Below are positions 1 to 60,580 of a DNA stretch of 64,000 bases, piece after piece. Source of the stretch: Ostreococcus lucimarinus (lineage: Eukaryota); the NCBI GenBank assembly GCA_000092065.1, contig CP000590.1; one strand, given 5' to 3'. The notes below the pieces were generated by a model that was not told the origin of the DNA, did not search any database, and saw only the letters and a program-made list of their open reading frames with translations. The translations under genes and the position numbers were made by a program. Positions within the stretch are counted from its first letter, which is position 1. Each line of letters opens with the position of its first letter.

Positions 1-248
1 GAGCGATTCGGCGGTGCGTCGACATCGCGCGTCATGTCGGGCGCGCGCGCGCGAGGGCGCGGCGAGTCGGCGTGTGAGGATCGATGGACGCGTCGCGGCA
101 GTCTTGAACATCCAGCGCGCGGCGAGCGGCGACCGCGGCGCGGCGGCTCGATCGGAAACGATGCGCGCGAGCGCGCGGGTCGACGATCGGTTCGTGTGAC
201 GCATGATTAATAACGTCTGTGTTCTAGCTATGTGTGCGATGTGCGCGG

Positions 249-3200
249 TCAAGGGTCGATTTCGCCGCGCTCGATGGCGGCTTGTCGCGCGGCGGCGCGC
301 CGCTCGACGTCTTTTCGCGCGAGCTCGTCGGCTTGCGCGCGGAGGTTGGCGTATTCGGGCGGAATGCCGCCGGATTGCTCGAGCCACTTGCGCGCGGCGT
401 CGTCGGGAAGTACGATGGCGACGTCCAAGCGCTCTTCATCGGACATTTGGGTGAGGTAGTGCTCGGCCCAATCCGGAAGCGGGACGCCTTCCTCCGCAGA
501 GGCCATGCTGTGGATTTGGTCCTTGACGAGCCCCCAGAATTTTCCCTTGGAAGGGTCGTCCGACCAAATTGCGCTCATCAAATCGTCCCAATACACTTCT
601 TGCTGTTCACCCCACGCGATGTCCCAAACCCCCATGCCACGATCGCGTGTGATACCAGCCTTTTCGAAGGCTTGCGCAAGCTGGCGACCGCCGATTTCTC
701 GCGCCGTCGCGAGCGACTCCTTGAGCGAAAAGAGCATCTCTCTATTTTTCGGCTCGTGAAGAATCGCCACCGTACGCTGGGCCGCCTTAATCAACGTCTT
801 TCTCACCTCATTGTACACTAATAAATCCAATTCAGGCGATAACTGCCTCATCACCTCGATGTGCTCAGTCTTGCCGACGCGCAGGTAACCTTCTTCGCGC
901 GTAGGTTCGGCGGCGAGGGCGATGGGACCTAAATCACTCCACCCGTTCTGCATCACCATTTCGCACGCCAAATTCGTCGCAGCGGCGACATCGTGCATGC
1001 CGCGGGTCGTTACGTTCTCGGGACCGTACAAATAACGCTCCGCCATCTGGCCTGCGAGGAGTACGCACAGCTTGGCTTCGTAATACTCCATGGAGCGCAC
1101 CGTGCGAGCCGCGGGAGAGTCGACTTCATCCGGCACGTAGACGATTTGACCCGTGGCTACACCACCGTTAAACACCGTCACCTTGCTAATCTCGTCGTAC
1201 GAAGGCATGTGCATCGCGACCACGGCCTGCGCGGCGTAATAATTCACCACCGAGTCTCGTTCGTACGCGTCGAGTTGCGCGATGAGGGTATCTTCGAGCA
1301 TTCTATCGCGAGCCAAACTTCCGCTGCCACTTCCGTTGCGAACGAACGCTTGCGATCGTCGAATATCGTCGATGCAAAACAAGAAGTCACCCGTAGACGC
1401 GAGCGCCTTCTCGCCTTGCGCACAGCGCATGACGGCCGACTTGGTGAGGTTCTCGATGTCGGCGCCGCTGAAACCGGCAGTTTGTCTGGCGAGGTACTCG
1501 TAGTCCAAGTTGGGATCGACACTCGACGCGAACGATGGCTTGTTGCAGTGCAAGAACAAGATTTCTTGACGCGACTTCTTGTTCGGCAGACCCATCTCGA
1601 TGATGCGATCAAAACGACCGGCACGAATGAGCGCAGGATCGAGTACTTGCGGACGGTTCGTCGCCGCCAACACCATGATGCCCGTGGCGGTCGAGAAACC
1701 GTCCATCTCCGTCAGCATTTGATTGATCGTCGCCGTCGCTTCGTCGTTACCGTAAACCTGACCGGATTGTGTCTCAGTACGCTTCGTGCCGACGGCATCG
1801 AATTCATCGATGAAGATGATGCACGGCGCAACCTTCTTGGCTTGATCAAACAAGTTGCGAATACGCGCGGCTCCGACGCCGACGAACATCTCCATAAACT
1901 CCGTACCAGCGCATGAGAAGAAGGGCACATTTGCCTCGCCCGCGACACAACGAGCGAGCAACGTCTTACCCGTACCGGGCGGACCGCACAAAAGCACGCC
2001 TGCGGGAATGCGCGCGCCCATGGAGTTGTACTTTTCGAAATCCTTCAAGTAGGAAATGAGTTCAAACATTTCCGCCTTGACGTTGTCGATGCCGGTGATG
2101 TCCTTCAACGTCATCCCTTGGCGAACGTTCGAGTCGTAGTTACGCGTAGTCATGTTACCGAACATGTCTTCCGAGCTATCCTTGTACGTGCCTTCGTAAA
2201 TAAGCCACGCATAGAACACCATCACCATCGGCGTCAACGCGTTGAACAGGAACGCCGTAATCTCGAGCCAGCGAGGATACTTCTCCATCTCAATCTGAAT
2301 GACCCCTCCATTACCCGGTCTTTCGGTGACGAGCTTTTTGAACAACACCGGATCGTACGGAAGGTTGCAACCGAACACCTCCTCCGTGTCGTCGATGTAA
2401 TATCTAATGCTCGTCTCGTTGGCGCGGTACACCACGCGGTTGACGCGCCCGACGTCGAGTAATCTGTGGAACGACGTGTAAGACGTCTCCGTGGGGAATC
2501 TATCGGTGCCCATGGTTGAGTACGGATCGCGCAAGTACGCCAAGTTCACGTTGCGCACGAATCGTTCGCCGCGGTTGGAGAAAATCTTCTTGACGGGATT
2601 CTTCTTCTCCTGTTCGTACTTTTCGTACCGCTGGATGTCCTTCAAAACCTTTTCCTCCGCCGCGCTCAATTGCCTATTCCTACTCTCGGTGTGCTCACCA
2701 GTTTTCAACCCAACGAGTTCTTTCACCCTGTCCGCCATCACCTTCACCTTATCCACCTGTCCTCCCTGTTTGGGGGCCCTACGTTGGTGTTCTAAATTCA
2801 TTTTTTTCTTCTTCACCGTCCCGCGACGTCGTCGTCGTCTCTGCTTCGTCGGCGCCTCGACGACGCGCGGCTTATCCTCCGCGATCGCGTCGAGCTCTTC
2901 CAACAACTTCGCCGTCTCGTCCTCTTCATCCTTGGGATCGGAATCCACCGGCGCGATGTCGATCCCCACCCCCGCCACCTCGCCCACGCACGGCTCGCGC
3001 CGCGCGCTCGCCGTCGCCGCGCTCCTCGCCCCCTCCCGCCTCGCCTCGCGCGCCCCAGTCTCCAGCGCGCCCGCCGCTTTCGGCGCGCTCAACATCACCA
3101 ACGCCGCGATCGCGCCCATCTTCGTCGCCCGCTTCGCGCGCGCCCAGCCGTCGTCCGCGTTCGCGTCCCTCGCCGCGCGTCCCGCGCCGTCGTCGCCGCC

Positions 3201-3605
3201 GACGCCGCATCGCACCCCTCGTCCCCACCGCGCGCCCGCCTTCGCCCGCGCGACGCGCGCGCGTCGTCGTCCGAGTCCATCCGCGATCGCGCCGCGCGTC
3301 GGCGCGATCGTCGCGCCTCGCGCGATCGACATCGCGCGTCCGCGCGCGATCGGTCGAGTAAACCTAAGCCGCGATCGTCGAGCCGCGAATCGCGCGCGCG
3401 CGCGTCTCGAGGCGCGTCGAACCCGCGCGCGCGCGTCTCCCGACGCGTTCGCGACCTCGGCGCGCGCTTCGAGCGACCGCGCGTCGCGTCGCGCGCGTCG
3501 TCGTGTGCGCGCCGCCGCGCGCGGCGCGAGGGTTCGACGCGCGCTCGAATGATCGCGTTTCGTACGTCGTTTTCGACATACACTAGAGCATTTTAGCGCC
3601 ATCAT
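249..3605 (-). CDS. FtsH-like AAA+ ATPase / M41 peptidase homolog with degenerate zinc-binding site (FtsHi-like, presumed proteolytically inactive); 1118 aa ORF with Arg/Ala-rich N-terminal presequence-like region
   Basis: Walker A GPPGTGKT, Walker [10 protein letters not shown] and [23 protein letters not shown] are present. Where FtsH has AYHEAGHA the sequence reads [13 protein letters not shown], so HEXXH is lost. The rest of the M41 region is still alignable ([20 protein letters not shown]). Long C-terminal extension. The true start Met is uncertain because the N-terminal 200 aa is low-complexity. Confidence 0.8.
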
Positions 3606-3676
3606 TCAAAACGCTCGCGACGCGCGCCGACGCGCGCGCGACGGCGCGACGCGCGGCGACACCGCGACGCGCGACG

Positions 3677-4849
3677 ATGTCGAGCGTCGCGCCGACGCGC
3701 GCGCGATGGTCGTCGCGGCGGTTCGCGGGCGACGCGGGACGCGCGCGCGACGCGCGCGCGACGCGACGGCGCGCGCGAGATTTGAACGCGGCGCCGGCGA
3801 CGCGCGCGGGCGACGGCGACGGCGACGGCGCGGCGCTGGATTTCAACGCGTGCGCGCGCGAGCACGCGCGAGCGTTTCGCGCGACGCCGATGAGCGCGCG
3901 ACTGACGCGAGAGTTCGGGATGGGGGACTCGGGGACGGACGTGTCGCTCGCGCAGCGGTTGCTCGGGCGGGACGCGAGACGCGCGCACGGCGTGTGCGAC
4001 CGAGAGACGACGGAGGCGCTGCGCGCGTGGCAGATTTCGCGCGGATTAAAGCCGAGCGGGTTCTTCGGGGCGAGCTCGCGGGCGCAGATGGCGATGGAGG
4101 AGGAGCGGTGGCGCGAACTGGGGGGGGGGGCGCTGCTGGAGCGACTTTGGGAGGAGGAGGCGCGCGCGCGGGACGCGAGCGAACGCGCGAACGAACGCGC
4201 GGGAGGGAGCGGACGGACGCGCGGCGTGGTGGCGACGTCGACGACGCCGCGCGAAGCGCCGCGCGTCTCGCGCGTCGCGCGCGGCGCGTTGGTGTTGGTG
4301 GTCGCGTCGGCGGCTTTGGGCGCGGCGGCGCGTCTGAGAAATCGCGAGCGCTTCGCGGCGTTCGTCGATTCGGCGACGGCGTGGACGCGCGAATCGCGCG
4401 CGAAGGTCGCGCTCGACGTCGCGCGCGAGTTTATCGGCGCGTGCGGCGCGCGCGCGCGCGCGCGCTGGACCGAGATCGCCGCAGATTTCGCCGAGCGGCG
4501 CCGAGCGCTCGTCCGCGCCGCCGCGACGGCGATTTCTCGCGTTCGATCCGCGGCGGAACGCGTCGCGACGAACGACGCGCTCGACGCCGGCGCACCGCTC
4601 GCGGAGGGACACTTCGATGAAAACGGTCGCTGGTGGGAGTCCCCACTGCCCGCGTCCACGCCCAAAGCCGCCGACGCGAGGCCGCGTCCCGCCGAGCCGT
4701 CTCCGCGAGGCGGAGCGTCGACGGCTCGCGAGCGCGCCGAGCAAATGCGCGAGCGCTGGGTCAACATCCGTCGCCAACAGGTCGACGTCGGCGCGGACGA
4801 GCGTCGAGCGATTGAGCGCGTCTCTAAATTTCTCCGCGACGCCGAATGA
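3677..4849 (+). CDS. hypothetical protein with peptidoglycan-binding-like (PG_binding_1-type) domain
   Basis: The segment DVSLAQRLLGRDARRAHGVCDRETTEALRAWQISRGLKPSGFFGASSRAQM fits the LxxxLxxLG...G.FG..T..A...FQ...GL...G..G..T consensus. A Ser/Ala-rich ORF competes on the minus strand (3583..4956) and was judged antisense noise. Start uncertain. Confidence 0.45.
   Translation: MSSVAPTRARWSSRRFAGDAGRARDARATRRRARDLNAAPATRAGDGDGDGAALDFNACAREHARAFRATPMSARLTREFGMGDSGTDVSLAQRLLGRDARRAHGVCDRETTEALRAWQISRGLKPSGFFGASSRAQMAMEEERWRELGGGALLERLWEEEARARDASERANERAGGSGRTRGVVATSTTPREAPRVSRVARGALVLVVASAALGAAARLRNRERFAAFVDSATAWTRESRAKVALDVAREFIGACGARARARWTEIAADFAERRRALVRAAATAISRVRSAAERVATNDALDAGAPLAEGHFDENGRWWESPLPASTPKAADARPRPAEPSPRGGASTARERAEQMRERWVNIRRQQVDVGADERRAIERVSKFLRDAE
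4120..4130. repeat. G11 homopolymer inside a coding region
   Basis: Direct reading of gaactg followed by 11 g then cgctg. It encodes ELGGGALLE. Confidence 0.9.
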
Positions 4850-4939
4850 GCGCGCGCGCGCGATTTCAATGTACACGCATTCGTCGCCCTCGATTCGCTC
4901 CGTCGCCGCGCCTCCGCCGCGCCCGCACTCGACGACGCC

Positions 4940-6802
4940 ATGCTCGGTTTAGACACCTACGGCTCGTCCGATTCCGACGACGAGAACGACGCGCTCGCGA
5001 ACGTCGCGTCCGTCAAGCGCCCGATCGCGTCCGCGCCGCCCGTCGACGCCGGCGCGTTGGCGCTCGAGCGCGCGCTCGACGGCGATGGCGGCTCGACGGG
5101 AATGCGCGTCGTTCCGCTCGCGTCCACGCGCACGGTCGTCGGTGCGCGCGACGCGCGAACGCGATGGCATCGATCGATCGCTCGACGCGCGCGCGTCGCG
5201 CGAGGAACGCGCGTGGACGATGGACTGACGGAGATTCGTTCGACGCGCGCAGACCCGACGACGCGAGAGATGCGCGTGAACCTGACGTACGACGAGATGA
5301 CGGCCCCGATCGAGGGACCGAGGCACGAGACGCGAGAGGATAGACTCACGGGGCGAGGGGCGAGGAATCACGCGCTCGGGCAGGTGGACGCGACGACGGT
5401 GAACGCGTTTAGTTTCGACGAACAGTACAATACGTACAATTCGCGGGGGTACGCGGCGGCGCCGTCGGGGACTGGGGTCGTCGGTGACGCCGACGCGATG
5501 CGAGCGAGCAAGGGGGAGACGGCGTTTAATATTTCTGCGGCGAAAAAACGAAGGATTCGCGAGGAAGTGCTCGCGGGGGTGGCGACGCCGGCGAGCGGCG
5601 AGACGGATACGTCGGCGTGGGCGCCGGCTCGAGCGGCGCAAAAGGTGCTCGTGCACGATGATTTGTCGGAGAAGGAGAAGGAGTACGTGAAATGGCACAT
5701 GGATAATCGCGAGGCAAAGCTTCGGGCGAAAGGAAAGTTGGAAGGTTTGGAGACGGGTCCGGGCGAGGACGGCGGCGCTCAAGACGACTCAAAGTTTACA
5801 AAGTTTCACGGCTCGGAGGAAGTCAACTACGCGGGGGATTCTTGGATTGCGGCGCCAAAGAGCGAGAAGCGCGATGGAGATGGAACTTGCTTCGCGCCGA
5901 ACAAGTGCGTGCACACGTTTAACGGTCACACGAAGGGTGTGTCAAAGATTGAATTTTTCCCTCACACCGGTCACCTGTTGCTCTCGGCGGGCATGGACAA
6001 CGTGGTCAAGATTTGGGACGTGTACAACAGTCGAAAGTGCATGCGCACGTACATGGGACACGACAAGGCGGTAAAAGACGTGTGCTTCAACGGCGATGGC
6101 ACGCGCTTCGTGTCGACGTCGTGGGATAAAAAGGTTCGATTGTGGGACACGGAGACTGGCAAAATAATCCAAACCGTGACGAGCGGGAAAATCGGTTACT
6201 GCGCGAAGATTCATCCAAAGCAAGACAACTTGGTGTTGATCGGGCAGAGCGATAAAAAAATCGTGCAGTGGGACATGAACAACGGGGACTTGGTGCAAGA
6301 GTACGACCAGCATCTCGGGCCGGTGAACTCGATCACTTTCGCCGACGGCGGCGAACGCTTCATGTCCTCTTCGGACGACAAAACGCTTCGAGTTTGGGAG
6401 TTTGGAATCCCGGTGACGACTAAATACATCGCTGACCCGTCGATGCACTCCGTGCCCGCGACTGCGATATCGAACAACGGCAAGTACATCATCGGTCAAT
6501 CGCTCGACAATCAAATTATCACCTTTAGCGTCGACGAACGCTTTCGAAGAAACAACAAGAAACGCTTTGGTGGTCACCACAACGCCGGTTACGCGTGCCA
6601 GCCCGCGTTTTCTACCGATGACAGCACCGTCGTTAGCGGCGACGGGTCTGGTAAGATCTTCTTCTGGGATTGGAAGACGTCCAAAATCATCAAATCCGTC
6701 AAGGCGCACGCCGAGGTGTGCATCGGCGTCGCTTGGCACCCGCTCAAGAGCTCCGTCGTCGCGTCGTGCAGTTGGGACAAGACGATCAAGCTGTGGAAGT
6801 AG
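4940..6802 (+). CDS. PRP17: pre-mRNA-processing factor 17 (PRP17/CDC40), WD40 protein
   Basis: The N-terminus MLGLDTYGSSDSDDEN is typical of PRP17. The C-terminal half has 7 WD40 repeats (GHTKGVSKIEFFPHTGHLLLSAGMDNVVKIWDV, GHDKAVKDVCFNGDGTRFVSTSWDKKVRLWD and others). Single uninterrupted ORF. Confidence 0.9.
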   Translation: MLGLDTYGSSDSDDENDALANVASVKRPIASAPPVDAGALALERALDGDGGSTGMRVVPLASTRTVVGARDARTRWHRSIARRARVARGTRVDDGLTEIRSTRADPTTREMRVNLTYDEMTAPIEGPRHETREDRLTGRGARNHALGQVDATTVNAFSFDEQYNTYNSRGYAAAPSGTGVVGDADAMRASKGETAFNISAAKKRRIREEVLAGVATPASGETDTSAWAPARAAQKVLVHDDLSEKEKEYVKWHMDNREAKLRAKGKLEGLETGPGEDGGAQDDSKFTKFHGSEEVNYAGDSWIAAPKSEKRDGDGTCFAPNKCVHTFNGHTKGVSKIEFFPHTGHLLLSAGMDNVVKIWDVYNSRKCMRTYMGHDKAVKDVCFNGDGTRFVSTSWDKKVRLWDTETGKIIQTVTSGKIGYCAKIHPKQDNLVLIGQSDKKIVQWDMNNGDLVQEYDQHLGPVNSITFADGGERFMSSSDDKTLRVWEFGIPVTTKYIADPSMHSVPATAISNNGKYIIGQSLDNQIITFSVDERFRRNNKKRFGGHHNAGYACQPAFSTDDSTVVSGDGSGKIFFWDWKTSKIIKSVKAHAEVCIGVAWHPLKSSVVASCSWDKTIKLWK

Positions 6803-12043: not shown

Positions 12044-15037
12044 CTACATCGGATTTATGAGGCCGATTGGCTGAGTCTGGCCTAAGCGGCCGCGCGGAGG
12101 CGTCGGCGGACGATCGCGGTTGACGTCTTGCAGCCACAAGTTGTCGTCGATGCGGTCGGAGGGCGATAAAGACTCCATGGCGATCGGTGGTAACGGGTGG
12201 ATGAGCTTGGGGTATAACGTCAGATCGCGCCCTAACACCAGAATCGCTCCGGCGTTATTCGCGGTCCCGCAATAGTTTGTTGCGCTAAAGACGGTGAGCA
12301 GTTGTCCTTGGGCGAAACGCTCGAAACCGTCCATGACGCACTCGTGCGCGCGGATGATCATCTGGATCCCGTTCGTTTCGCAGAACGCCTTCACACGATC
12401 TGGCCCGAAAGTCACGAGACCTGGACCCCGCGCGTTCGGGCGTAAACCTTCGATACCATCGTTCTCTGTCGGGTCGCTCCAGAGAATGTCCATGAGCTCG
12501 ACGCCGCCGTTTTCCATGTTCAACGGTCGCTTCAGCTCATTGATTTGCGAGATGTGCGTCAAGCTACGGCCGATACCACCGTGCATGCAGCAAATACGAT
12601 CCTCGATGACGGCCGCAAGCGGGAGCCATTCGAACAACTCGTTGAATCTTCGCCAGACTGCGTCGCCCGCGGATTCGCCCAGACGCTCGACGCACTCGAT
12701 GCGGAATCCAAACAACGCATTGATGTCCGACTCTTCGTGGTTACCGCGAAGTAAATGCACAGCTTGCGGGTGCTCAATTTTCAGCGCGAGCAGCAGAGAA
12801 ATGGTCTCCAAGGAGTACGCACCGCGATCGACGTAGTCTCCCAAGAAAACGTAATCGATGTATGCGATGTCGCCCGCCGTCGATGGCGCGCCGTATTCGG
12901 CGAATAACCGCATCAAATCTCCAAACTGACCGTGCAGGTCGCCAAAGATTTTCGCCGGACCTTTCACCGTAAGTACGGTCTCTTCGTTCTTGAAACAATG
13001 CTCTGCGGCGTCGCATAACTCGTTGATGGCGCTCGCGCTAAGAAAGAATCGACGATCCGTGCTCGGCTCCCAGGTGTGCGGATGAAGCAAGTGCGTGAGC
13101 ACGGCCTTGTGCACGGGTTGCGCCCCGAGCTCAGCGGCGCGTCTCGCGCGCGCCATCTTCGCTGGAGTGTCTCCGGGGGTGAGCATATCCACACCGGGAG
13201 TACCGATGCGTCGCGCCTCGTTTTCAAACTGATCGATGGACAGCTGCCGCACCATGCTCGCGACGCCTCGCGGCGTTGACTTCGCGCCAGAATCTGGCGG
13301 CGCGGCGGCAACGACTACGGCACGATGATGTAACCTAACTTCCGACGCGGGCGTGCGTAGAGCCGATTCTGGGGAGCCGAAACGAGCGAATCCAGGCGAT
13401 GGCGTGTGCACGGACGATCCCGGAGAGCCAGAGTCAGATTCGCCCAACGAAAACTTTCTTCGAGCGACCAACTCGAGCGCGGCTGCCGCTTCTTGCGCGC
13501 TCGCCGCACGCAGCTCTTTCTCCGCAGCGGCGTTCATGTTGTCGGGCGAATCCGGGGACCCCGGCGAACCTCCGAGCGGTCGCAAGGCGATGCCCTCGGG
13601 AGACGAGGGCGAACTGAAGGATCCGTTTGAATACGTTGCGTCTCGTTGCGTGTTGATTGCGAACGAGTCTCGAACGTTTCTCGGCGAGTGCATTCCTAAT
13701 ATATCAGCCGACAGCCCGGTTTCACCGAGCCATTTACGCCAAGCCAAGGAATTCGGATCGATGAGAGTCGCGAGCTCTCGCGTGCGTTCGGCGCGCGTCG
13801 AACCGCTCTCTTGCGGCGGCTCTTCGAGCACGACCAAATCATCCAACAACGTTCCGTTTCTCAAACCACCGTGCACGAAAATGAATGGACCATACGCCAC
13901 ACTTGCATGGCGGCACCGTCGTCCGACGAGTGAGCTCGCGTCGTAGGAAAGCTGTGCCTTGCCCTCGGAACTCTTCGCGTCCCGCCATCCCGTGCTTCCA
14001 CCCGACGACGTGTCCAGCATCGACATCGTCGCTTCGTTCGTGACGAGCTGTCCCCCACCCGACGCCCCACCGGTGATGTGCAATCTCGTGTCCACGAATG
14101 CGGTCGCGTGCTGGTATCGACGCGTTGGTGCCTTGCCCGGCGCTTCGGCCCACTCCCAACGCCCGTCGCGGTGCCTAGCCAAACCGTACGCGTCATTCAG
14201 CGCGAAACCGTCCGCACCGCGGCCACCGCAGAGCAGCAACAGACCATCGCTTCGAGTACTCGCGCTCGCGTACGTTCTCGCGCTCGGCACGGGCCCACTC
14301 GGCGCGCACTTGGTCCATTCGTACGGTTTCGTCGTCGTGTCCAACACCCACGTATCGTCCAAGCACTTCGAACCGTCCGTCCCCCCGATCACCACCAAAA
14401 ATCTCTGCGCCACGAAACTCAACACGTGCGCGTATCGTTGCCCCGGACCTTGCCCCCGCACGTGCACGCGGTGCCACTTCGGGTCCCTCGTCGCTAAATC
14501 CAACACGTACAAATCTTCATCCGCCAACCCGTCCGGCCCGATGCCGCCGAGCACGACGAGCATCCCTCCCACCGTGGCCGCCCCGTGCGCCGCCCGCGGG
14601 CTCGGCACGTCACCGCCGCACTCCAACTTCCCCCACTCCCCGTTAAACGGGTCCAAGACGTGCAATTCATTCGTCGCGCCGCTCAGCTTGACCCACGCGC
14701 CCGCGTCTCGACCCGCCTGCGGGCTCAACCCCACGTTCGCGCTCGCGTTCGCCCCGCTTCCGCCCTCGAGCTCGGTCGCACCCCCGAACGTGACTATCTT
14801 CGTCTTTTGATTCCATCGCAGCGCCGTCATCGTGTGTCCACAGCGCGCGCCCGGCGCCGAAGACGTCGCGAACGTTTTCGAGTCATTCGCGAACGTCGAC
14901 GCGTTATTCGTCGCGTCCGCGAACCCAGCGCGCGATCGCGTCGCGTCGAACGGCGCGGCGAGCATTCTTCGCCCTCTGCGCGCCCGCGCGACGCGCAGTT
15001 CGCCGCTCGCGCGTCGTTCTGACGCGCAGTCGTTCAA
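12044..15037 (-). CDS. Kelch-repeat serine/threonine protein phosphatase (BSU1/BSL/PPKL family, PP1-like catalytic domain)
   Basis: N-terminal Kelch propeller (GHTMTALRWNQKTKIVTFGG, PRAAHGAATVGGMLVVLGG and others). C-terminal PPP catalytic motifs GDLHGQFGDL, GDYVDRG, RGNHE, HGG and the tail. 997 aa continuous ORF. Confidence 0.9.
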   Translation of the reverse strand: MNDCASERRASGELRVARARRGRRMLAAPFDATRSRAGFADATNNASTFANDSKTFATSSAPGARCGHTMTALRWNQKTKIVTFGGATELEGGSGANASANVGLSPQAGRDAGAWVKLSGATNELHVLDPFNGEWGKLECGGDVPSPRAAHGAATVGGMLVVLGGIGPDGLADEDLYVLDLATRDPKWHRVHVRGQGPGQRYAHVLSFVAQRFLVVIGGTDGSKCLDDTWVLDTTTKPYEWTKCAPSGPVPSARTYASASTRSDGLLLLCGGRGADGFALNDAYGLARHRDGRWEWAEAPGKAPTRRYQHATAFVDTRLHITGGASGGGQLVTNEATMSMLDTSSGGSTGWRDAKSSEGKAQLSYDASSLVGRRCRHASVAYGPFIFVHGGLRNGTLLDDLVVLEEPPQESGSTRAERTRELATLIDPNSLAWRKWLGETGLSADILGMHSPRNVRDSFAINTQRDATYSNGSFSSPSSPEGIALRPLGGSPGSPDSPDNMNAAAEKELRAASAQEAAAALELVARRKFSLGESDSGSPGSSVHTPSPGFARFGSPESALRTPASEVRLHHRAVVVAAAPPDSGAKSTPRGVASMVRQLSIDQFENEARRIGTPGVDMLTPGDTPAKMARARRAAELGAQPVHKAVLTHLLHPHTWEPSTDRRFFLSASAINELCDAAEHCFKNEETVLTVKGPAKIFGDLHGQFGDLMRLFAEYGAPSTAGDIAYIDYVFLGDYVDRGAYSLETISLLLALKIEHPQAVHLLRGNHEESDINALFGFRIECVERLGESAGDAVWRRFNELFEWLPLAAVIEDRICCMHGGIGRSLTHISQINELKRPLNMENGGVELMDILWSDPTENDGIEGLRPNARGPGLVTFGPDRVKAFCETNGIQMIIRAHECVMDGFERFAQGQLLTVFSATNYCGTANNAGAILVLGRDLTLYPKLIHPLPPIAMESLSPSDRIDDNLWLQDVNRDRPPTPPRGRLGQTQPIGLINPM

Positions 15038-17936: not shown

Positions 17937-19025
17937 TTAGCCTTGAAAGAATGTGTGCTTCGAGGGTTCGCTCGGAACGTATTCTATCGGCCCGACGACG
18001 ACGGCGGCTTCGGGCAACGGCGCGCCAGGTGACGGGATCTTTTGAAAGAAGACCACCTCGTTCTCTTTGACAGCTTTCGCTGCGAGTGCGGCCACACGCG
18101 AGGCGAGCTCGCCGTGATACGTCGCCCACGAGACGATTTCTCCGGAGGCCTGCGCGCAATCGCGCACGGCTTCCTCCGCGCGCCTACACGCTGCGATGAC
18201 TTCGCCGCACTCGTCCGCAGCGCGCCGCGCCTCGGCGTGCGCGAGAAATGCCTCCGCTTCGTGCGTCTTCCAAGCTACCAGCACGCCGGCCGTCAAAAAT
18301 ATGTCCACGCCGTTCCAATCGCATCGACGCGACTGCAACACCGCGTTGGCATCGCGGTACAACTCGCTCGCGCCGCGATGCAGCCGCGCGCGCAAATTCG
18401 CCGCGCTTCCGCGTTCGAGCGCTCGCCGACACGCCGCGCCCTGCGCGTCACCGAGCGAAATCAACGTCATCACCTCCGCCATCGACGCCGTGAGTTCATT
18501 CGCCACGCATTCACCATCCAACGACGCCTTCAGCGGCGGCAAAACCGTCTCCTGCAAGTGCTTGAACATCCCCGCCGCGACTCTCGCGTTCTTCGAGCAG
18601 CTCGCCGCGCCCGCGTCGCCCAATCCTCCCTCCGCCATCCGCGCCGCCGTCTCTCGCGCGCAAAGTCTTCTGTGACACGACGCGAGTCCAAACAGCGCGA
18701 ACGCGCGCTCGCCGGCCAATCCCGGCGCCGGATACGACCTCGCCTCGCGTCCGCTCTCGAGCGTCGACGCCCATCGCGCCGTCGGCCCCTCCCCGCGGTC
18801 CAGCGCCTCCAGCGCGCCCTCCGCCTCCGTGATCACGTCCACGTATCGCTCGTACTTGCGCCTTCCGACGTCCGCGTCCGCGTGCGCCGCCGCGTGCGCG
18901 CACGACGCGCGCGCGGCGTTCAACGCGCGAAGTCGTTGGAACGCGAGCGAATCCGCGGCGCCGTCGGCGACGAACTCGATCGCCTCGGGCGTCAGCGCGC
19001 GCGCGTAGTCGATCGGCAGGAACAT
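17937..19025 (-). CDS. BRO1-domain protein (BROX-like); start taken at Met 19025 inside an 807-aa ORF whose upstream part is Pro/Arg low-complexity
   Basis: BRO1-like signatures: ERAFALFGLASCHRRLCA (compare ALIX ERSCVLFNCAALASQIA), LISLGDAQGAACRRAL (compare LAQAQE), and the C-terminal KENEVVFFQKIPSP (compare KDNDFIYHERVP). Confidence 0.55.
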   Translation of the reverse strand: MFLPIDYARALTPEAIEFVADGAADSLAFQRLRALNAARASCAHAAAHADADVGRRKYERYVDVITEAEGALEALDRGEGPTARWASTLESGREARSYPAPGLAGERAFALFGLASCHRRLCARETAARMAEGGLGDAGAASCSKNARVAAGMFKHLQETVLPPLKASLDGECVANELTASMAEVMTLISLGDAQGAACRRALERGSAANLRARLHRGASELYRDANAVLQSRRCDWNGVDIFLTAGVLVAWKTHEAEAFLAHAEARRAADECGEVIAACRRAEEAVRDCAQASGEIVSWATYHGELASRVAALAAKAVKENEVVFFQKIPSPGAPLPEAAVVVGPIEYVPSEPSKHTFFQG

Positions 19026-19108
19026 CTCGCGCGTCGTCGCGCGCGCGCGCGAGGGCCCGACGCGCCGTCGCGGCGCGCGGCGCGAGATGGCGTCGGACGG
19101 CGCGCGCG

Positions 19109-20260
19109 ATGCATCGAACTTTCGCCGCACCGCGACGCGCGCGCGGCGCGCGACGCGCGCGCGCGATGACGCGCGAATCACCCGCGACGGCGTCGACGTC
19201 CGCGCGCGCGTTTCTGCGCGGCGGCGCGTTCGAGCGCGCGGTGGCGACGCGTTCTTGGCCGTTTTTGGGCCTCTTCGCCGCGCGCGACGACGACGACGCG
19301 CGCGACGACGACGACGCGCGCGGCGAGGACGACGCGCGCGACGACGACGACGTCGCGAAAGTCGAGACCGTCGCGCGCGCGTCGCTCGATGGGCGCGTCG
19401 CGTACGATAAAGCGGCGTTGCTGCGACTTCGGGACGCGGCGGCGTCGAGCGGGACGCCGCCGGGCGCGACGGAGGAAGACATGCGGGCGTACCCTTGGCG
19501 CGCGCGCGTGGATGTGGGTCAAGGCGCGAGCGAGGTCGAGAATGACGCGGAGGAAGACGCGGTGACGGCGGCGGCGACGGCGAGGGTGGTGATGGAGACG
19601 GAGGCGGTCGCGCGCGCGCGGTCGGCGTGGCGCGAGCGGGAGACGTTCGAGGCGGACGCGGAACAGGCGGCGGTGGCGTTGAGGCGGGTGTTGGCGCGCG
19701 AATCGGAAGGTGACGGTGATGCGGTGAGCGAGGGTTATCGGGTGACGTTTCGCGACGGCGCCGTGCGGGCGTTCGTGCGAAAGCTGACGCGCGAACGGTT
19801 CGGCGATTTGTCGGCGGCGGATTTGGATCTTCGCGAGACGTCGCGAGAAGGAGAGACAGCGGTTTTGTACGGCACGCGAAGGCTCGCGGAAGACGGCGCG
19901 TACGAAGTGAGCGTGGCGTTCGTACATCCGTGGGATGGTGAACTCGAGCACGTGGTTTCGTGGCTCTCAAAACCGGCGGACGATTCGGAAACCGTCGTCT
20001 CGCCCGTGGGTTGGCTTCGCGCGAACGCCAGTCTCGGCGCCAGTTTACCCCCGAACGCGAAACGTGCGTACGACGACATCGCCACTGGTCGTGGCGATGC
20101 GCATGTGAACGTCTCAGCCGCGCGATTGTTTGTCGCGCTCGACGTCTCGACGAGCGCGTGCGGCCCTTTGGTGATGGAGTGTTACGATTTAGAATCGCGC
20201 GCGGGCGTAGAGTACTTCCTCGGGGGTGCCGACGCGGCGGAGCACGACGAGGATTATTAG
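19109..20260 (+). CDS. hypothetical protein (C-terminal globular domain, no family assigned)
   Basis: The C-terminal 250 aa is non-repetitive (YRVTFRDGAVRAFVRKLTRERFGDLSAADL...VAFVHPWDGELEHVVSWLSKP...). The N-terminal part overlaps the low-complexity antisense of the BRO1 ORF. Contains a YDKAALLRL (YxxxxLphi-like) segment of unknown significance. Confidence 0.35.
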   Translation: MHRTFAAPRRARGARRARAMTRESPATASTSARAFLRGGAFERAVATRSWPFLGLFAARDDDDARDDDDARGEDDARDDDDVAKVETVARASLDGRVAYDKAALLRLRDAAASSGTPPGATEEDMRAYPWRARVDVGQGASEVENDAEEDAVTAAATARVVMETEAVARARSAWRERETFEADAEQAAVALRRVLARESEGDGDAVSEGYRVTFRDGAVRAFVRKLTRERFGDLSAADLDLRETSREGETAVLYGTRRLAEDGAYEVSVAFVHPWDGELEHVVSWLSKPADDSETVVSPVGWLRANASLGASLPPNAKRAYDDIATGRGDAHVNVSAARLFVALDVSTSACGPLVMECYDLESRAGVEYFLGGADAAEHDEDY

Positions 20261-20341
20261 CGAGATAGCTCGATAGGCTTTTGCAACGTGAATGACAACG
20301 ATTATTATATGCGTGCGCAGTACGGAGACGAACATCGTTGT

Positions 20342-21721
20342 CTAGTCGTCGATACCACACTTCAAGTTGGCTGGGAGCGACTCGTCGATTTTCTTTGGGT
20401 ACGCCAAATTCAAGTTGCTCATGATTTCTACGAACTCCTCTTTGGTCTTCTTCAACCCTAATCGCGGGTTGAGCTCTTTTTCCTCACCGATCGTACTCAC
20501 CATACGCCCCTTGTAGTCGTGCGCTGGATACACGAGCGTCTCGTCGGGGAGTTCGAAGAGTTGAGTGCGCACCGAGTCGTATAGTTTTTCGCTCGAACCA
20601 CCTTGGAAATCGGTTCGACCGCATCCACGAATGAGTAACGCGTCGCCCGTGAAGACCATATTATCGCACACGTAGCTCACGCATCCGTCGGTGTGCCCCG
20701 GAGTCGCGCGGACTTCCAAGTTGATGACGTTGGAATCGGCGCCGAAAGAAATCACGTCGCCGTGCTTGATGTGCACGTCTGCGCGCGCGCCTGAAGACTC
20801 TGCGATGACGCTTTGCAGACCGGTGACTTTCGCCTTCAAATCACCGCTGCCCGTGATGTGATCGGCGTGGCAGTGCGTGTTGATGGCGTACTTGAGCTTC
20901 AAGCCCAAATCGTTGACAACCGCCAAATCACGGTCCACCATCTCCTTCAACGGATCGATTAACACCGCCTCCTTGCTCACCGGGTCCCCCAATAAGTACG
21001 TGTACGTCGAGCTCCCGCTTGTGTCGAACAACTGTCGGAAAATCAACCCTGCATCCGGGCGCAACCCCTCGCGCACGAAATCCGCCAACGGCGGCTTGGA
21101 GAAAAACTTCAAGTCCATCGCTCTCGCGCGTTGCAACGCCCCCGCCTGCGGCCATCGCTGCTCGCGAGCCTTGAACAGTATATACGCCATACTCGCTCGC
21201 GTTGCCGTCGAGCACTGCACCATCGTCGGTCGCGGTAACGCCTCCATGGCGTCCGCCAGCTTCTTCGCCAAGCCTCGCGTGAGCGTCGCGCCCTCCACGA
21301 CGAATTGTTTAAACCCATCGCCGAGCGCTTTCTTCGCCGCCGCCGGAAACGCGGCGTCGCTCTCGGCGTTCATGTATATCCACGACTTGAACTCACCCTC
21401 GCTCAGCGCTCGATCGACGTCCGCGGCGGAGAGATCGCCGACGAGCGTGATTCGTTCGCTCGAGAATTCTCGCGCGTGCGGTAAGTCGAGCGGCATCGTC
21501 CGCGTGAGACGACGCAGAAGCGCGAACGGGGGCCGGGAGACTCGAAACGAGACACCGCGAGGGTTCGTCGAGGGGCTGGATGCGAGTCGTGAGCACAGGG
21601 ACGCCGTGACGCGCATGGGTGTGCCTGTGGCGCGCGATGGCGCGTCCGGGCGGCACCGCAGTCGGCACCGAGATGTGGAATCGACGCCGAGGGCGAGTTC
21701 GCGAGCGCGAGAGCGCGGCAC
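20342..21721 (-). CDS. ETHE1: ETHE1-type persulfide dioxygenase (metallo-beta-lactamase fold) with additional about 150-aa N-terminal domain and organellar presequence
   Basis: C-terminal MBL motifs [23 protein letters not shown] and YPAHDY match ETHE1/GLY3. The N-terminal domain ([32 protein letters not shown]...) resembles the DUF442/phosphatase-like module fused to ETHE1 in bacterial Blh proteins. Confidence 0.85.
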
Positions 21722-60396: not shown

Positions 60397-60580
60397 GACG
60401 GCGGTCGCGACGCGGTGTGGACGCGCGACCGGTCGAAAGACCCGAAGCCCGCGAAGGTGCCGCGAAGGTGCCGCGAAGGCTGGAACGCGGCGAAGGCGAG
60501 GCGAGACGAAAGCGACGCGCGATGGGCGTCGCACGGCGGTGGTGCGCGCGATTTGAGATGAAATGCATCTCTGGGTTACA

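What the first reader, a model, noticed from the sequence alone, without database searches (positions are those of the whole stretch)
249..3605. Protease-dead FtsH homolog (FtsHi-like) with intact AAA+ module and long C-terminal extension
The AAA module is complete ([12 protein letters not shown] Walker B, SRH arginines). The M41 zinc motif HEXXH is replaced by AAQAV in [13 protein letters not shown]. The surrounding peptidase fold and a C-terminal extension of about 300 aa are retained. In land plants such FtsHi proteins form the Ycf2-FtsHi ATP-driven import motor at the chloroplast inner envelope. An algal member with its own extension is worth comparing.
Basis: partly seen in the sequence, partly recalled or inferred. 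Interest (0 to 1): 0.6.

Follow-up and report, generated by a model that had tools for sequence, protein, structure and literature searches.

The report
Protease-dead FtsH ATPase of picoalga
This nuclear gene of a tiny marine green alga encodes an FtsH-type membrane ATPase that has kept its motor but lost its zinc protease site; it is a new lineage-specific member of the known "FtsHi" pseudo-protease class, some of whose members drive protein import into chloroplasts.

Summary
The ORF at 249-3605 (-) is real. It has a complete AAA+ module and an M41 peptidase fold in which HEXXH is replaced by YYAAQ. No HExxH occurs anywhere else in the protein.

- The degenerate motif is YYAAQ, not AAQAV.
- The C-terminal extension is about 134 aa, not about 300.
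- The true start is probably Met92 (window 3332), giving 1027 aa.

The loss of HEXXH is conserved in all orthologs. These include Ostreococcus tauri XP_003081545.1 and a partial Micromonas pusilla protein. It is therefore not an error or a chimera.

In an exhaustive search of 1.84 billion proteins, the nearest single-AAA relatives outside the family all lack HEXXH. They are green-algal FtsH-likes of the Fhl3/FtsH12 type, and Fhl3 is a solved subunit of the Chlamydomonas Orf2971(Ycf2)-FtsHi import motor. The window protein is not an Fhl3 ortholog. It is a separate paralog found so far only in Mamiellophyceae-type algae, with its own Trp-rich C-terminal extension.

The literature reports plastid ftsH/ycf2 and ycf1 in all prasinophyte plastomes examined. 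The most likely role is an ATP-driven, non-proteolytic subunit of the plastid-envelope import motor. That role is inferred, not shown.

Verdict: new member of a known kind, of modest interest.

The parts
249..3605 (-).
249..3332 (-). Most likely CDS (1027 aa, start at Met92, stop at 249-251); single exon
   Evidence: P0001 is 100% identical and starts here. It was found on two independent contigs. Ortholog N-termini align here.
3333..3605 (-). In-frame upstream 91 codons, Arg/Ala-rich and (CG)n-rich; probably 5' UTR or divergent promoter region, not coding
3120..3332 (-). aa 92-162: poorly conserved Ala/Arg/Gly-rich presequence (organelle targeting peptide, inferred)
   Evidence: 29% identity among orthologs; composition
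3063..3119 (-). aa 163-181: hydrophobic segment [19 protein letters not shown] (TM1 or signal-anchor; conserved APKAASA motif)
   Evidence: Kyte-Doolittle 1.55; conserved in orthologs
2706..3062 (-). aa 182-300: variable acidic, then poly-Arg/Lys region
2271..2705 (-). aa 301-445: conserved N-terminal (trans-side) domain. Its distal part is FtsH-periplasmic-like, with the SYT...RV...LPYDPxL signature shared with Fhl3-type proteins.
   Evidence: FtsH_ext weak, 13.8-16 bits. T. maritima FtsH 7tdo 29 bits. Fhl3 is the only FtsH-type PDB hit of the family N-domain profile, but E = 0.22 is not significant. HMM cross-scores are about 50 vs 14 bits.
2196..2270 (-). aa 446-470: transmembrane helix 2
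   Evidence: hydropathy 1.5-1.8; aligns with TM2 of E. coli FtsH
1371..2108 (-). aa 500-745: AAA+ ATPase core plus lid
   Evidence: Pfam PF00004 5e-43 and PF17862; 95% identity among orthologs in the core; pLDDT about 90
1962..1985 (-). Walker A GPPGTGKT (aa 541-548)
1878..1889 (-). Pore-loop 1 MFVG (aa 573-576) with the aromatic residue Phe574
1797..1820 (-). Walker B IIFIDEFD (aa 596-603)
1605..1661 (-). Second region of homology with sensor-1 Asn and Arg fingers (aa 649-667)
654..1262 (-). aa 782-984: M41 peptidase-fold domain without a zinc site (pseudo-protease)
   Evidence: PF01434 6.6e-21; aligned to E. coli FtsH up to chain residue 590; Foldseek top hits are FtsH
1227..1241 (-). YYAAQ at the position of HEXXH (aa 789-793)
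   Evidence: Y[YF]AAQ in all close orthologs and YTAAQ in a distant one
990..992 (-). Asp872, retained at the position of the third zinc ligand (GMHDV vs E. coli SNDI)
   Evidence: Alignment; invariant in the family. Its identity as the ligand position rests on my knowledge of FtsH structures.
252..653 (-). aa 985-1118: family-specific C-terminal extension. It is Trp-rich (7 W in 134 aa; VWDxAWGxQxEVYWDD...FW...PxWA...LP..AA.K.L.QSGG.P) and ends in a variable charged helix.
   Evidence: Conserved in orthologs at 57% identity, tail 25%. Also present in Micromonas-type members. No Pfam match and no PDB sequence match. Predicted helical with low confidence except for the last helix.

Best explanation
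The gene encodes an FtsHi-type pseudo-protease. This is a membrane-anchored FtsH descendant with a fully functional-looking AAA+ unfoldase module and a peptidase-M41 domain kept only as a structural (ring-forming) domain.

Shown here:
- The domain order is: presequence, hydrophobic segment, enlarged trans-side N-domain, TM helix, AAA+, M41 without HEXXH, then a 134-aa Trp-rich tail.
- The loss of the zinc motif is ancient. It is fixed in a family found so far only in Mamiellophyceae-type algae (Ostreococcus and Micromonas, plus unnamed metagenome sequences).
- The family branches with the HEXXH-less green-algal Fhl3/FtsH12-type proteins rather than with canonical FtsH proteases. It is a separate paralog, not an Fhl3 ortholog.

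Inferred:
- After import into the plastid, the protein sits in the inner envelope with its N-domain in the intermembrane space and its AAA+/M41 part in the stroma.
- There it joins the plastid-encoded Ycf2/FtsH-like protein and other nuclear FtsHi subunits in a hetero-hexameric ring.
- ATP hydrolysis moves the pore-loop Phe574 to pull preproteins out of the TIC channel, without degrading them.
- The C-terminal extension, on the stromal face of the pseudo-protease ring, would dock lineage-specific accessory proteins or neighbouring subunits.
For: - Domains and motifs.
- Below the curated cutoff of the canonical FtsH equivalog model: TIGR01241 438 bits against a cutoff of 600.
- Loss conserved: Y[YF]AAQ in P0001-P0007, YYAAQ/YFAAQ in Micromonas-type P0031/P0311, and YTAAQ in P0297.
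- Purifying selection pattern: AAA core 95% identity, M41 71%, N-domain 71%, C-extension 57%, presequence 29%.
- Orthologs are transcribed: MMETSP transcripts marked 'type:complete'.
- Relatedness, exhaustive search: with a family profile against 1.84e9 representatives, every single-AAA hit above 354 bits lacks HEXXH. The first canonical FtsH is P0109 at 354 bits.
- Identity of those relatives: they include clear Fhl3/FtsH12 orthologs. P0064 scores 299 bits to Fhl3, against 186 to E. coli FtsH and 148 to FtsH12. Cymbomonas P0052 scores 266, 168 and 171.
- NJ tree (475 columns, 200 bootstraps): the HEXXH-less green clade has 70-86% support and the window family 100%.
- HMM cross-scores favour the Fhl3-type profile over the canonical profile in the N-domain (about 50 vs 14 bits), AAA (347 vs 312) and M41 (150 vs 105).
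- Among motor chains in the PDB, Fhl3 is the best match of the family M41 profile: 59.9 bits, then FtsH12 30.6, FtsHi5 22.1 and Ctap1 14.9. Fhl3 is also the top PDB hit of the N-domain profile, but at E = 0.22 that match is not significant on its own.
- Fhl3 chains rank 4-7 by Foldseek.
- Fhl3 is a core subunit of the solved Orf2971-FtsHi motor, in which all core subunits lack HEXXH and the complex hydrolyses ATP.
- ftsH (= ycf2) and ycf1 are among the genes shared by all compared prasinophyte plastomes. This includes Ostreococcus. For Micromonas commoda a ycf2-like and a ycf1-like gene were later identified by RNA-seq.
Against: - No localisation, interaction or activity data exist for this protein or any ortholog.
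- It is not an ortholog of any characterised motor subunit. In a like-for-like comparison its C-terminal half scores higher to E. coli FtsH (136 bits) than to Fhl3 (105), and FtsH12 does not reach the top 60.
- The clade rests on a distance tree with moderate support (64-86%). Long-branch attraction among fast-evolving pseudo-proteases is possible.
- Sequences of FtsHi1, FtsHi4, FtsHi5, Fhl1 and Ctap1 could not be obtained for the tree.
- The plastome of this particular organism is unknown.
- The C-extension model has low confidence and matches nothing known.
- The targeting peptide was judged by eye only.
Confidence: 0.55

Rival explanations
1. It is an inactive subunit of a mixed, still proteolytic FtsH hetero-hexamer in the thylakoid or envelope. 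It contributes ATPase and ring structure next to catalytically active FtsH subunits and tunes protease activity, rather than driving import.
For: - The AAA and M41 domains are less diverged from bacterial FtsH than those of characterised FtsHi. E. coli FtsH is the best PDB match at 335 bits for the full length, 85.6 bits for the family M41 profile and 136 bits for the C-terminal half.
- The M41 fold and the Asp at the third-ligand position are conserved. This fits assembly into a protease-type ring.
- From my own knowledge: land-plant FtsH12, the closest land-plant relative, keeps HEXXH inside the motor, so mixed rings are known.
Against: - The nearest relatives are all HEXXH-less and of the motor-subunit type.
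- In the Chlamydomonas motor no core subunit has HEXXH.
- No active partner was identified here.
Confidence: 0.2
2. It is a stand-alone, or differently partnered, AAA+ unfoldase or chaperone of the plastid that is unrelated to preprotein import (for example membrane-protein extraction, assembly or regulation). This would resemble Arabidopsis FtsHi3, which is reported to form a complex separate from FtsH12/FtsHi.
For: - The family is lineage-restricted and has its own Trp-rich C-terminal extension with no known homolog.
- It is a paralog beside the Fhl3-type group rather than a member of it.
- The FtsHi3 precedent is described in the review read.
Against: - All three shared regions are more similar to Fhl3-type proteins than to canonical FtsH.
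- The Chlamydomonas motor hexamer holds five distinct proteins in six positions (Orf2971, Ctap1, Fhl1, Fhl2 and two copies of Fhl3). A reduced Mamiellophyceae genome would still have to fill those positions.
Confidence: 0.17
3. It is a mitochondrial inner-membrane FtsH-like pseudo-protease (a derivative of the m-AAA or i-AAA type).
For: The Arg/Ala-rich presequence is ambiguous between organelles.
Against: - Yme1 (31-33 bits) and AFG3L2 (21 bits) are much poorer matches for the M41 domain than bacterial-type FtsH and Fhl3.
- The family clusters with plastid Fhl3/FtsH12-type proteins.
Confidence: 0.05
4. It is a pseudogene, a sequencing or assembly artefact, or a chimera.
For: None beyond the unusual motif. 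Long ORFs arise easily in DNA of 62% G+C.
Against: - An identical protein lies on two independent contigs with the same neighbours.
- Its 90% cluster has 124 members.
- Colinear orthologs exist in O. tauri, and a partial one in M. pusilla.
- MMETSP transcripts exist.
- The conservation pattern is strongly domain-specific.
Confidence: 0.01

Closest known systems
Chlamydomonas reinhardtii Fhl3 (PDB 8xks_F, 8xqw_B/C), a core subunit present twice in the Orf2971(Ycf2)-FtsHi import motor
   Same: - Same domain order: long N-terminal part, FtsH-periplasmic-like domain with the SYT...RV...LP(Y/F)DPxL signature, one TM helix before the AAA, an intact AAA+ module, and an M41 fold without HEXXH.
- Tyr at the first-His position (YEAGK vs YYAAQ).
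- Similar length (1112 vs 1027-1118 aa).
- Best motor-subunit match by sequence and by fold (33% identity).
- Same HEXXH-less green clade.
   Different: - Not orthologous. True orthologs score 266-299 bits to Fhl3; the window protein scores 105, below its score to E. coli FtsH.
- The Fhl3-type C-terminal 'GF.W...G.L..P ... NGNG' tail is absent and is replaced by an unrelated Trp-rich extension.
- The Glu of HEXXH is also lost.
Arabidopsis thaliana FtsH12 (PDB 8xku_B / 8xkv_B)
   Same: It is the land-plant counterpart of the Fhl3 group (148-171 bits to Fhl3-type algal proteins). It is an envelope AAA+/M41 subunit of the Ycf2-FtsHi motor.
   Different: - FtsH12 keeps HEXXH (per the reviews read).
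- It gives only 25-31 bits to the window M41 region.
Arabidopsis FtsHi1, 2, 4, 5 and Chlamydomonas Fhl1, Fhl2, Ctap1 (other motor pseudo-proteases)
   Same: - Same class: an FtsH homolog with a mutated zinc motif and a retained ATPase.
- FtsHi2 has NEAAM at the motif. Its surrounding 'AAxAVVA' resembles the window's 'AAQAVVA'.
   Different: - Much more distant. The FtsHi2 ortholog P0009 is 35% identical over the AAA domain only.
- FtsHi5 scores 22 bits and Ctap1 15 bits; the others are undetected with the M41 profile.
Canonical bacterial FtsH (E. coli, PDB 7vhp; TIGR01241)
   Same: - Overall architecture and fold.
- Best single PDB sequence match (335 bits) and best Foldseek match (1.5e-35).
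- Pore loop, Walker motifs and SRH are identical in type.
   Different: - No HEXXH.
- Below the TIGR01241 cutoff (438 < 600).
- Organellar presequence.
- N-terminal region about 200 aa longer.
- 134-aa C-terminal extension.
Ostreococcus tauri XP_003081545.1 / CAL56069.1 / OUS43395.1 (UniProt Q010G3, A0A1Y5I8Q6)
   Same: It is the named ortholog. It lies in the 90% cluster of P0004, which is 73% identical to the window protein. P0004 has YFAAQ and the same C-terminal extension.
   Different: - It is annotated only as 'cell division protein FtsH' or 'P-loop containing nucleoside triphosphate hydrolase'.
- The full-text library searched holds no paper that combines FtsHi with a Mamiellophyceae term in a relevant way.

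Membership tests
Canonical FtsH zinc metalloprotease (MEROPS M41; TIGR01241) | AAA+ module with Walker A/B, pore-loop aromatic residue and SRH arginines | tested here: met
Canonical FtsH zinc metalloprotease (MEROPS M41; TIGR01241) | M41 peptidase fold C-terminal to the AAA module | tested here: met
   PF01434 6.6e-21; AF2 model with pLDDT about 90 and FtsH as top Foldseek hits
Canonical FtsH zinc metalloprotease (MEROPS M41; TIGR01241) | HEXXH zinc-binding and catalytic motif | tested here: not met
   YYAAQ at the aligned position; no HE..H anywhere in the ORF
Canonical FtsH zinc metalloprotease (MEROPS M41; TIGR01241) | Score above the curated equivalog cutoff | tested here: not met
   TIGR01241 438.4 bits against a cutoff of 600; PRK10733 349 against 1008
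FtsHi pseudo-proteases (class definition: FtsH homolog with mutated or missing HEXXH) | FtsH-type AAA+ plus M41 domain with both zinc-binding histidines substituted | tested here: met
FtsHi pseudo-proteases (class definition: FtsH homolog with mutated or missing HEXXH) | The substitution is a fixed evolutionary state, not an error in one sequence | tested here: met
   All orthologs carry Y[YFT]AAQ; an identical protein lies on two contigs
FtsHi pseudo-proteases (class definition: FtsH homolog with mutated or missing HEXXH) | Absence of proteolytic activity with retained ATPase activity | not testable with these tools
   Needs biochemistry on the purified protein or complex
Fhl3 / FtsH12 orthogroup | Markedly higher similarity to Fhl3/FtsH12 than to canonical FtsH, as bona fide members show | tested here: not met
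   Window fragment: E. coli FtsH 136 bits, Fhl3 105, FtsH12 not in the top 60. Members score 299 vs 186 and 266 vs 178.
Fhl3 / FtsH12 orthogroup | Fhl3-type C-terminal tail (GF.W...DG.L..P, NGNG) | tested here: not met
   Alignment A4: the tail is absent from the window family and is replaced by a Trp-rich extension
Wider green-lineage clade of Fhl3/FtsH12-type FtsH-likes (nearly all without HEXXH) | Groups with these proteins to the exclusion of canonical FtsH | tested here: met
   NJ bootstrap support 70-86%. HMM cross-scores agree in three regions. In the ranking of the exhaustive search, all single-AAA hits above 354 bits lack HEXXH. Caveat: distance method, and several named FtsHi are missing from the tree.
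Ycf2-FtsHi chloroplast import motor (system) | Plastid-encoded Ycf2/FtsH-like partner and Tic214/ycf1 present in the lineage | tested here: inconclusive
   The literature lists ftsH (= ycf2) and ycf1 among genes shared by all compared prasinophyte plastomes (PMC4194372). For Micromonas commoda, ycf2-like and ycf1-like genes were identified later, and O. tauri ORF1260/ORF537 are cited as their homologs (PMC5344333). The plastome of the source organism itself is not available.
Ycf2-FtsHi chloroplast import motor (system) | Inner-envelope localisation and physical association with Ycf2, other FtsHi and TIC | not testable with these tools
   Needs tagging and co-purification, for example in O. tauri

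The most novel reading that the evidence does not exclude
Mamiellophyceae, which include the smallest free-living eukaryotes, may build their chloroplast import motor with a lineage-specific FtsHi paralog. This paralog is far less diverged from active FtsH than any characterised motor subunit. Its conserved Trp-rich C-terminal extension would recruit stromal partners that differ from those of Chlamydomonas and land plants. That would make it a near-ancestral snapshot of how a protease ring was converted into a translocation motor.
Probability: 0.25. Interest if true: 0.5.

Novelty: new member of a known kind. Interest (0 to 1): 0.3.

Why it matters
The Ycf2-FtsHi motor is a recent and still debated part of the chloroplast import machinery. 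Its structures are known only from Chlamydomonas and Arabidopsis, and the subunit sets of the two differ.

A conserved, slowly evolving pseudo-protease paralog in Ostreococcus and Micromonas could help in three ways:
- It could help reconstruct how often, and in what order, FtsH protease sites were lost. The motifs seen here are HEAGH in FtsH12 (per the literature), HEAGI in Cymbomonas, YEAxK/R in Fhl3-type proteins and YYAAQ in this family.
- It offers a minimal system, because Ostreococcus tauri is transformable.
- It corrects database annotation. These proteins are currently labelled 'cell division protease FtsH'.

This is an incremental addition, not a new principle.

Tried and rejected
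1. AF2 with a 7-sequence alignment failed (pLDDT 38). It was repeated with 103 sequences.
2. The third protein-database search used a mixed profile to fetch named plant and Chlamydomonas FtsHi sequences. It was swamped by bacterial FtsH and returned none. The tree therefore lacks FtsHi1, FtsHi4, FtsHi5, FtsH12, Fhl1, Fhl2 and Ctap1. Only FtsHi2 could be included, through P0009, a mis-named Noccaea protein.
3. PDB sequence searches with full-length queries are dominated by p97/CDC48 and show only 60 rows. Motor-subunit scores therefore had to be read from C-terminal and N-terminal fragments.
4. The C-terminal extension has no PDB sequence match at E <= 10 and no Pfam family; the only hit was TilS at E = 0.09, which is noise. 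No sub-model fold search was possible.
5. Orthology to Fhl3 was considered and rejected.
6. Orthology to FtsHi2 was considered because plant FtsHi2 proteins were the next hits. It was rejected: 35% identity, limited to the AAA domain.
7. The source organism could not be named. There were no Rfam hits, and the protein's own cluster holds only metagenome members. It is closer to O. tauri (73%) than to Micromonas (42-50%).
8. I could not establish whether the Fhl3-type 'G55' proteins (P0055, P0308, P0310) come from Mamiellales, and hence whether both paralogs coexist in one genome. Their contigs are compact and gene-dense but unnamed.
9. The antisense ORFs inside the gene (for example 2491-3552 on the plus strand) were dismissed as artefacts of the high G+C content.


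Full report
**Observation**

The window carries one uninterrupted ORF of 1118 codons at 249..3605 on the minus strand.
- Pfam finds AAA (aa 537-672, E 5e-43), AAA_lid_3 (699-729) and Peptidase_M41 (782-970, E 6.6e-21), plus a sub-threshold FtsH_ext match at 372-432.
- NCBIfam's FtsH equivalog TIGR01241 matches aa 371-972 with 438 bits, below its cutoff of 600.
- The best solved-structure match is E. coli FtsH (7vhp, 335 bits, aa 444-977). In that alignment 'AYHEAGHAIIG' pairs with '[11 protein letters not shown]'.
- A motif scan confirms Walker A GPPGTGKT (541-548), pore loop MFVG (573-576), Walker B IIFIDEFD (596-603), the SRH with both arginines (649-667) and GFSGAD (711-716). It finds no HE..H anywhere in the ORF.
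- The Asp at the position of the third zinc ligand is retained (GMHDV vs E. coli SNDI). That this is the ligand position rests on my knowledge of FtsH crystal structures.

- *Extension length.* Homology to FtsH runs to about aa 984. The C-terminal extension is 134 aa, not about 300.
- *Start codon.* The start is most likely Met92 (window 3332).
  - The database holds a 100%-identical 1027-aa protein, P0001, that starts there.
  - All orthologs begin at the equivalent position.
  - The 91 upstream codons are Arg/Ala-rich translations of a (CG)n-rich stretch.
  - The first ATG lies only 72 bp from the ATG of the divergently transcribed neighbouring gene.
  - a poorly conserved Ala/Arg/Gly presequence (aa 92-162);
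  - a hydrophobic segment with a conserved APKAASA motif (163-181);
  - a variable acidic, then poly-basic stretch (182-300);
  - a well-conserved domain (301-445) whose distal part resembles the FtsH periplasmic domain (T. maritima FtsH, 29 bits);
  - the transmembrane helix that precedes the AAA module (446-470).

**It is a real gene**

- The identical protein lies on two independent metagenome contigs, flanked by the same genes: a WD40 gene, an unannotated 410-aa gene and a Sec7 gene.
- Its 90% cluster has 124 members, all from marine metagenomes.
- Orthologs P0002-P0008 are colinear and 64-73% identical by BLASTP. P0004 is the representative of the cluster that holds O. tauri XP_003081545.1, CAL56069.1 and OUS43395.1.
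- More distant members are 42-50% identical. One of their clusters holds the partial Micromonas pusilla protein XP_003055640.1.
- MMETSP transcripts marked as complete show that orthologs are expressed.
- All members carry Y[YF]AAQ, or YTAAQ in one distant lineage, and all carry the Trp-rich C-terminal extension.
- Identity to the window protein among the Ostreococcus-type orthologs is strongly domain-specific:

| Region | Mean identity |
|---|---|
| AAA core | 95% |
| Linker | 84% |
| M41 | 71% |
| N-domain | 71% |
| C-extension | 57% |
| Presequence | 29% |
| Extreme C-tail | 25% |

**Source organism**

- The rest of the window encodes nuclear housekeeping genes: RPB1 with CTD repeats, Hsp90, a Kelch-phosphatase, and BRO1, UCH, kinase, ABCG and WD40 proteins. 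They sit in compact, apparently intron-poor DNA of about 62% G+C. There is no Rfam hit.
- By protein identity the organism is an unnamed Mamiellales alga closer to Ostreococcus than to Micromonas.

**Relation to known FtsHi**

- The PDB holds the Chlamydomonas Orf2971-FtsHi motor (8xks, 8xqw, 8xqx). Its core is Orf2971, Ctap1, Fhl1, Fhl2 and two copies of Fhl3; none has HEXXH, and the complex hydrolyses ATP. The PDB also holds the Arabidopsis complex (8xku, 8xkv).
- With a family profile of the M41 region, the ranking is E. coli FtsH 85.6 bits, Fhl3 59.9, FtsH12 30.6, FtsHi5 22.1 and Ctap1 14.9. The other subunits are not detected.
- With a profile of the family's N-domain, the only FtsH-type hit in the whole PDB is Fhl3. 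It aligns the SYT...RV...LPxDPxL signature in the right place before the TM helix, but with E = 0.22 it is not significant on its own.
- An exhaustive HMMER search of 1.84 billion representatives with the family profile was classified by motif.
  - Every hit with a single Walker A that scores above 354 bits lacks HEXXH.
  - The first canonical FtsH appears at 354 bits.
- The HEXXH-less hits include proteins from Cymbomonas, Picocystis, Prasinoderma, Helicosporidium and a dinoflagellate with a green plastid.
- Several of them are clear Fhl3/FtsH12 orthologs. The table compares the same fragment (SRH to C-terminus) of each query against PDB chains, in bits:

| Query | Fhl3 | E. coli FtsH | FtsH12 |
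|---|---|---|---|
| P0064 | 299 | 186 | 148 |
| Cymbomonas P0052 (motif HEAGI) | 266 | 168 (best bacterial FtsH: A. aeolicus, 178) | 171 |
| Window protein | 105 | 136 | not in top 60 |

- So the window protein is not an Fhl3 ortholog.
- A neighbour-joining tree of AAA+M41 (475 columns, 200 bootstraps) gives the following:
  - a clade of HEXXH-less green-lineage proteins, with 86% support including Prasinoderma and 70% without it;
  - within it, the window family (100%), sister to the Cymbomonas-type group (96%) plus the Fhl3 group (90%), with 64% for that pairing.
- HMM cross-scoring agrees in each region taken separately. Window-family members score about 50 vs 14 bits (N-domain), 347 vs 312 (AAA) and 150 vs 105 (M41) against the Fhl3-type versus the canonical profile, and the reciprocal comparison points the same way.
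- The plant proteins that came up next in the first search are FtsHi2 orthologs (1806 bits to 8xku_F). They share only 35% identity, limited to the AAA domain.

**Structure**

- With a 103-sequence alignment, AlphaFold2 gives mean pLDDT 79.8 and pTM 0.71.
  - The AAA and M41 domains are at about 90.
  - The first 70 residues of the extension are at about 50.
  - A confident long terminal helix closes the model.
- Foldseek against the PDB returns FtsH first (E. coli model, E 1.5e-35), with Fhl3 chains at ranks 4-7 (33% identity). Alignments cover about 500 columns, so the extension is unmatched.
- The extension has no Pfam or PDB sequence match. It is Trp-rich: 7 of 134 residues against 1% for the whole protein.

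**Lineage context**

- A comparative plastome study lists ftsH (the ycf2 homolog) and ycf1 among the 75 genes shared by all compared prasinophyte plastomes (PMC4194372).
- For Micromonas commoda, ycf2-like (orf1577) and ycf1-like (orf603) genes were later identified by RNA-seq. Ostreococcus tauri ORF1260 and ORF537 are cited as their homologs (PMC5344333).
- The plastid-encoded partner of the motor therefore exists in this lineage. The plastome of this particular organism could not be checked.

**Mechanism (inferred)**

- The protein is imported into the plastid. It is anchored in the inner envelope, with the enlarged N-domain in the intermembrane space and the AAA+/pseudo-protease part in the stroma.
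- It assembles with the Ycf2-like protein and other FtsHi subunits into a hetero-hexamer.
- It uses ATP-driven movement of pore-loop Phe574 to pull preproteins through TIC without degrading them.
- The M41 domain serves as the ring scaffold, and the C-terminal extension serves as a docking surface.
- Shown: architecture, motif state, conservation and relatedness. Not shown: localisation, partners and activity.
- Rival readings cannot be excluded computationally: a dead subunit in a mixed proteolytic FtsH ring; a separate non-import unfoldase, like FtsHi3; or a mitochondrial location.

**Novelty**

- FtsHi pseudo-proteases and their role in the import motor are established in Arabidopsis and Chlamydomonas.
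- The Mamiellophyceae family is annotated only as 'cell division protease FtsH' or 'P-loop NTPase'.
- The searchable literature does not discuss FtsHi in these algae.
- It is a new, lineage-specific member of a known kind, with an uncharacterised extension. It is useful for evolutionary reconstruction and annotation, but it is not surprising to a specialist.

Noticed in passing
window 3620/3677-4849 (+): A gene of 390-410 aa is transcribed divergently from the FtsHi gene. It has no Pfam family at E <= 0.001 and is Arg/Ala-rich. The same synteny appears on two independent metagenome contigs.
   Followed up: partly
window 1-35 (-), continuing beyond the window start: By synteny with L001/L002, a Sec7-family ARF-GEF gene (1431 aa) starts about 213 bp downstream of the FtsHi stop codon and runs off the window.
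   Followed up: no
window 34099-38943 (+), 23202-25319 (+), 12044-15037 (-), 17937-20360 (-), 30930-32606 (-), 58777-60858 (-), 60581-62503 (-), 4940-6802 (+): Nuclear housekeeping genes lie in long single ORFs: RPB1 with CTD heptad repeats, Hsp90, a Kelch-repeat plus calcineurin-like phosphatase (BSU1-like), and BRO1-domain, UCH, kinase with cNMP-binding domain, ABCG-type transporter and WD40 proteins. This identifies the window as compact nuclear DNA of a green picoalga. There are no Rfam hits in the 64 kb.
   Followed up: partly
window 2491-3552 (+), 993-1916 (+), 3583-4956 (-) and others: Many ORFs of 300-450 codons lie antisense to, or overlap, real genes. They are Arg/Ala-rich translations typical of DNA with 62-68% G+C, and are almost certainly not genes.
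   Followed up: partly
window 3333-3605: A (CG)n-rich low-complexity stretch lies between the two divergent genes. It is in frame with the FtsHi ORF and inflates the ORF by 91 codons.
   Followed up: yes
P0031 / P0309 / P0311 (Micromonas-type orthologs; the P0311 cluster holds M. pusilla XP_003055640.1, partial): These orthologs carry an insertion of about 50 aa, rich in Gly/Lys, inside the M41 domain. It lies between the region that contains the conserved Asp and the C-terminal helices, and it is absent from the Ostreococcus-type members.
   Followed up: no
P0052 = Cymbomonas tetramitiformis KAK3256446.1: This protein is annotated 'FTSH 1, chloroplastic' but is an Fhl3/FtsH12 ortholog (266 bits to Fhl3). 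Its zinc motif is half-degenerate, HEAGI. It may be an intermediate state between FtsH12 (HEXXH retained) and Fhl3 (YEAGK).
   Followed up: partly
P0009 (Noccaea caerulescens), P0011 (Malus domestica): P0009 is named 'FtsH 3' and P0011 'hypothetical protein'. Both lack HEXXH. P0009 is an FtsHi2 ortholog (1806 bits to 8xku_F), so its database name is wrong.
   Followed up: yes
P0171 = Helicosporidium sp. KDD77104.1: A non-photosynthetic trebouxiophyte parasite retains an Fhl3-group HEXXH-less FtsH-like protein. This fits a plastid-maintenance role rather than a photosynthesis role.
   Followed up: no
P0297 (835 aa, ENA contig of 2.9 kb): This is a family member (YTAAQ plus the C-terminal extension). 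Its N-terminal half, however, looks like an unrelated bacterial-type FtsH N-terminus. It is either a gene-model or assembly chimera, or a lineage with a replaced N-domain.
   Followed up: no
L003-L005 (contigs carrying P0308): Fhl3-type HEXXH-less FtsH-likes of the 'G55' group lie on compact, gene-dense marine contigs next to Ribosomal_L19 and bestrophin genes. They may be the Mamiellales Fhl3 orthologs, which would prove paralogy with the window family, but the organism could not be named.
   Followed up: partly
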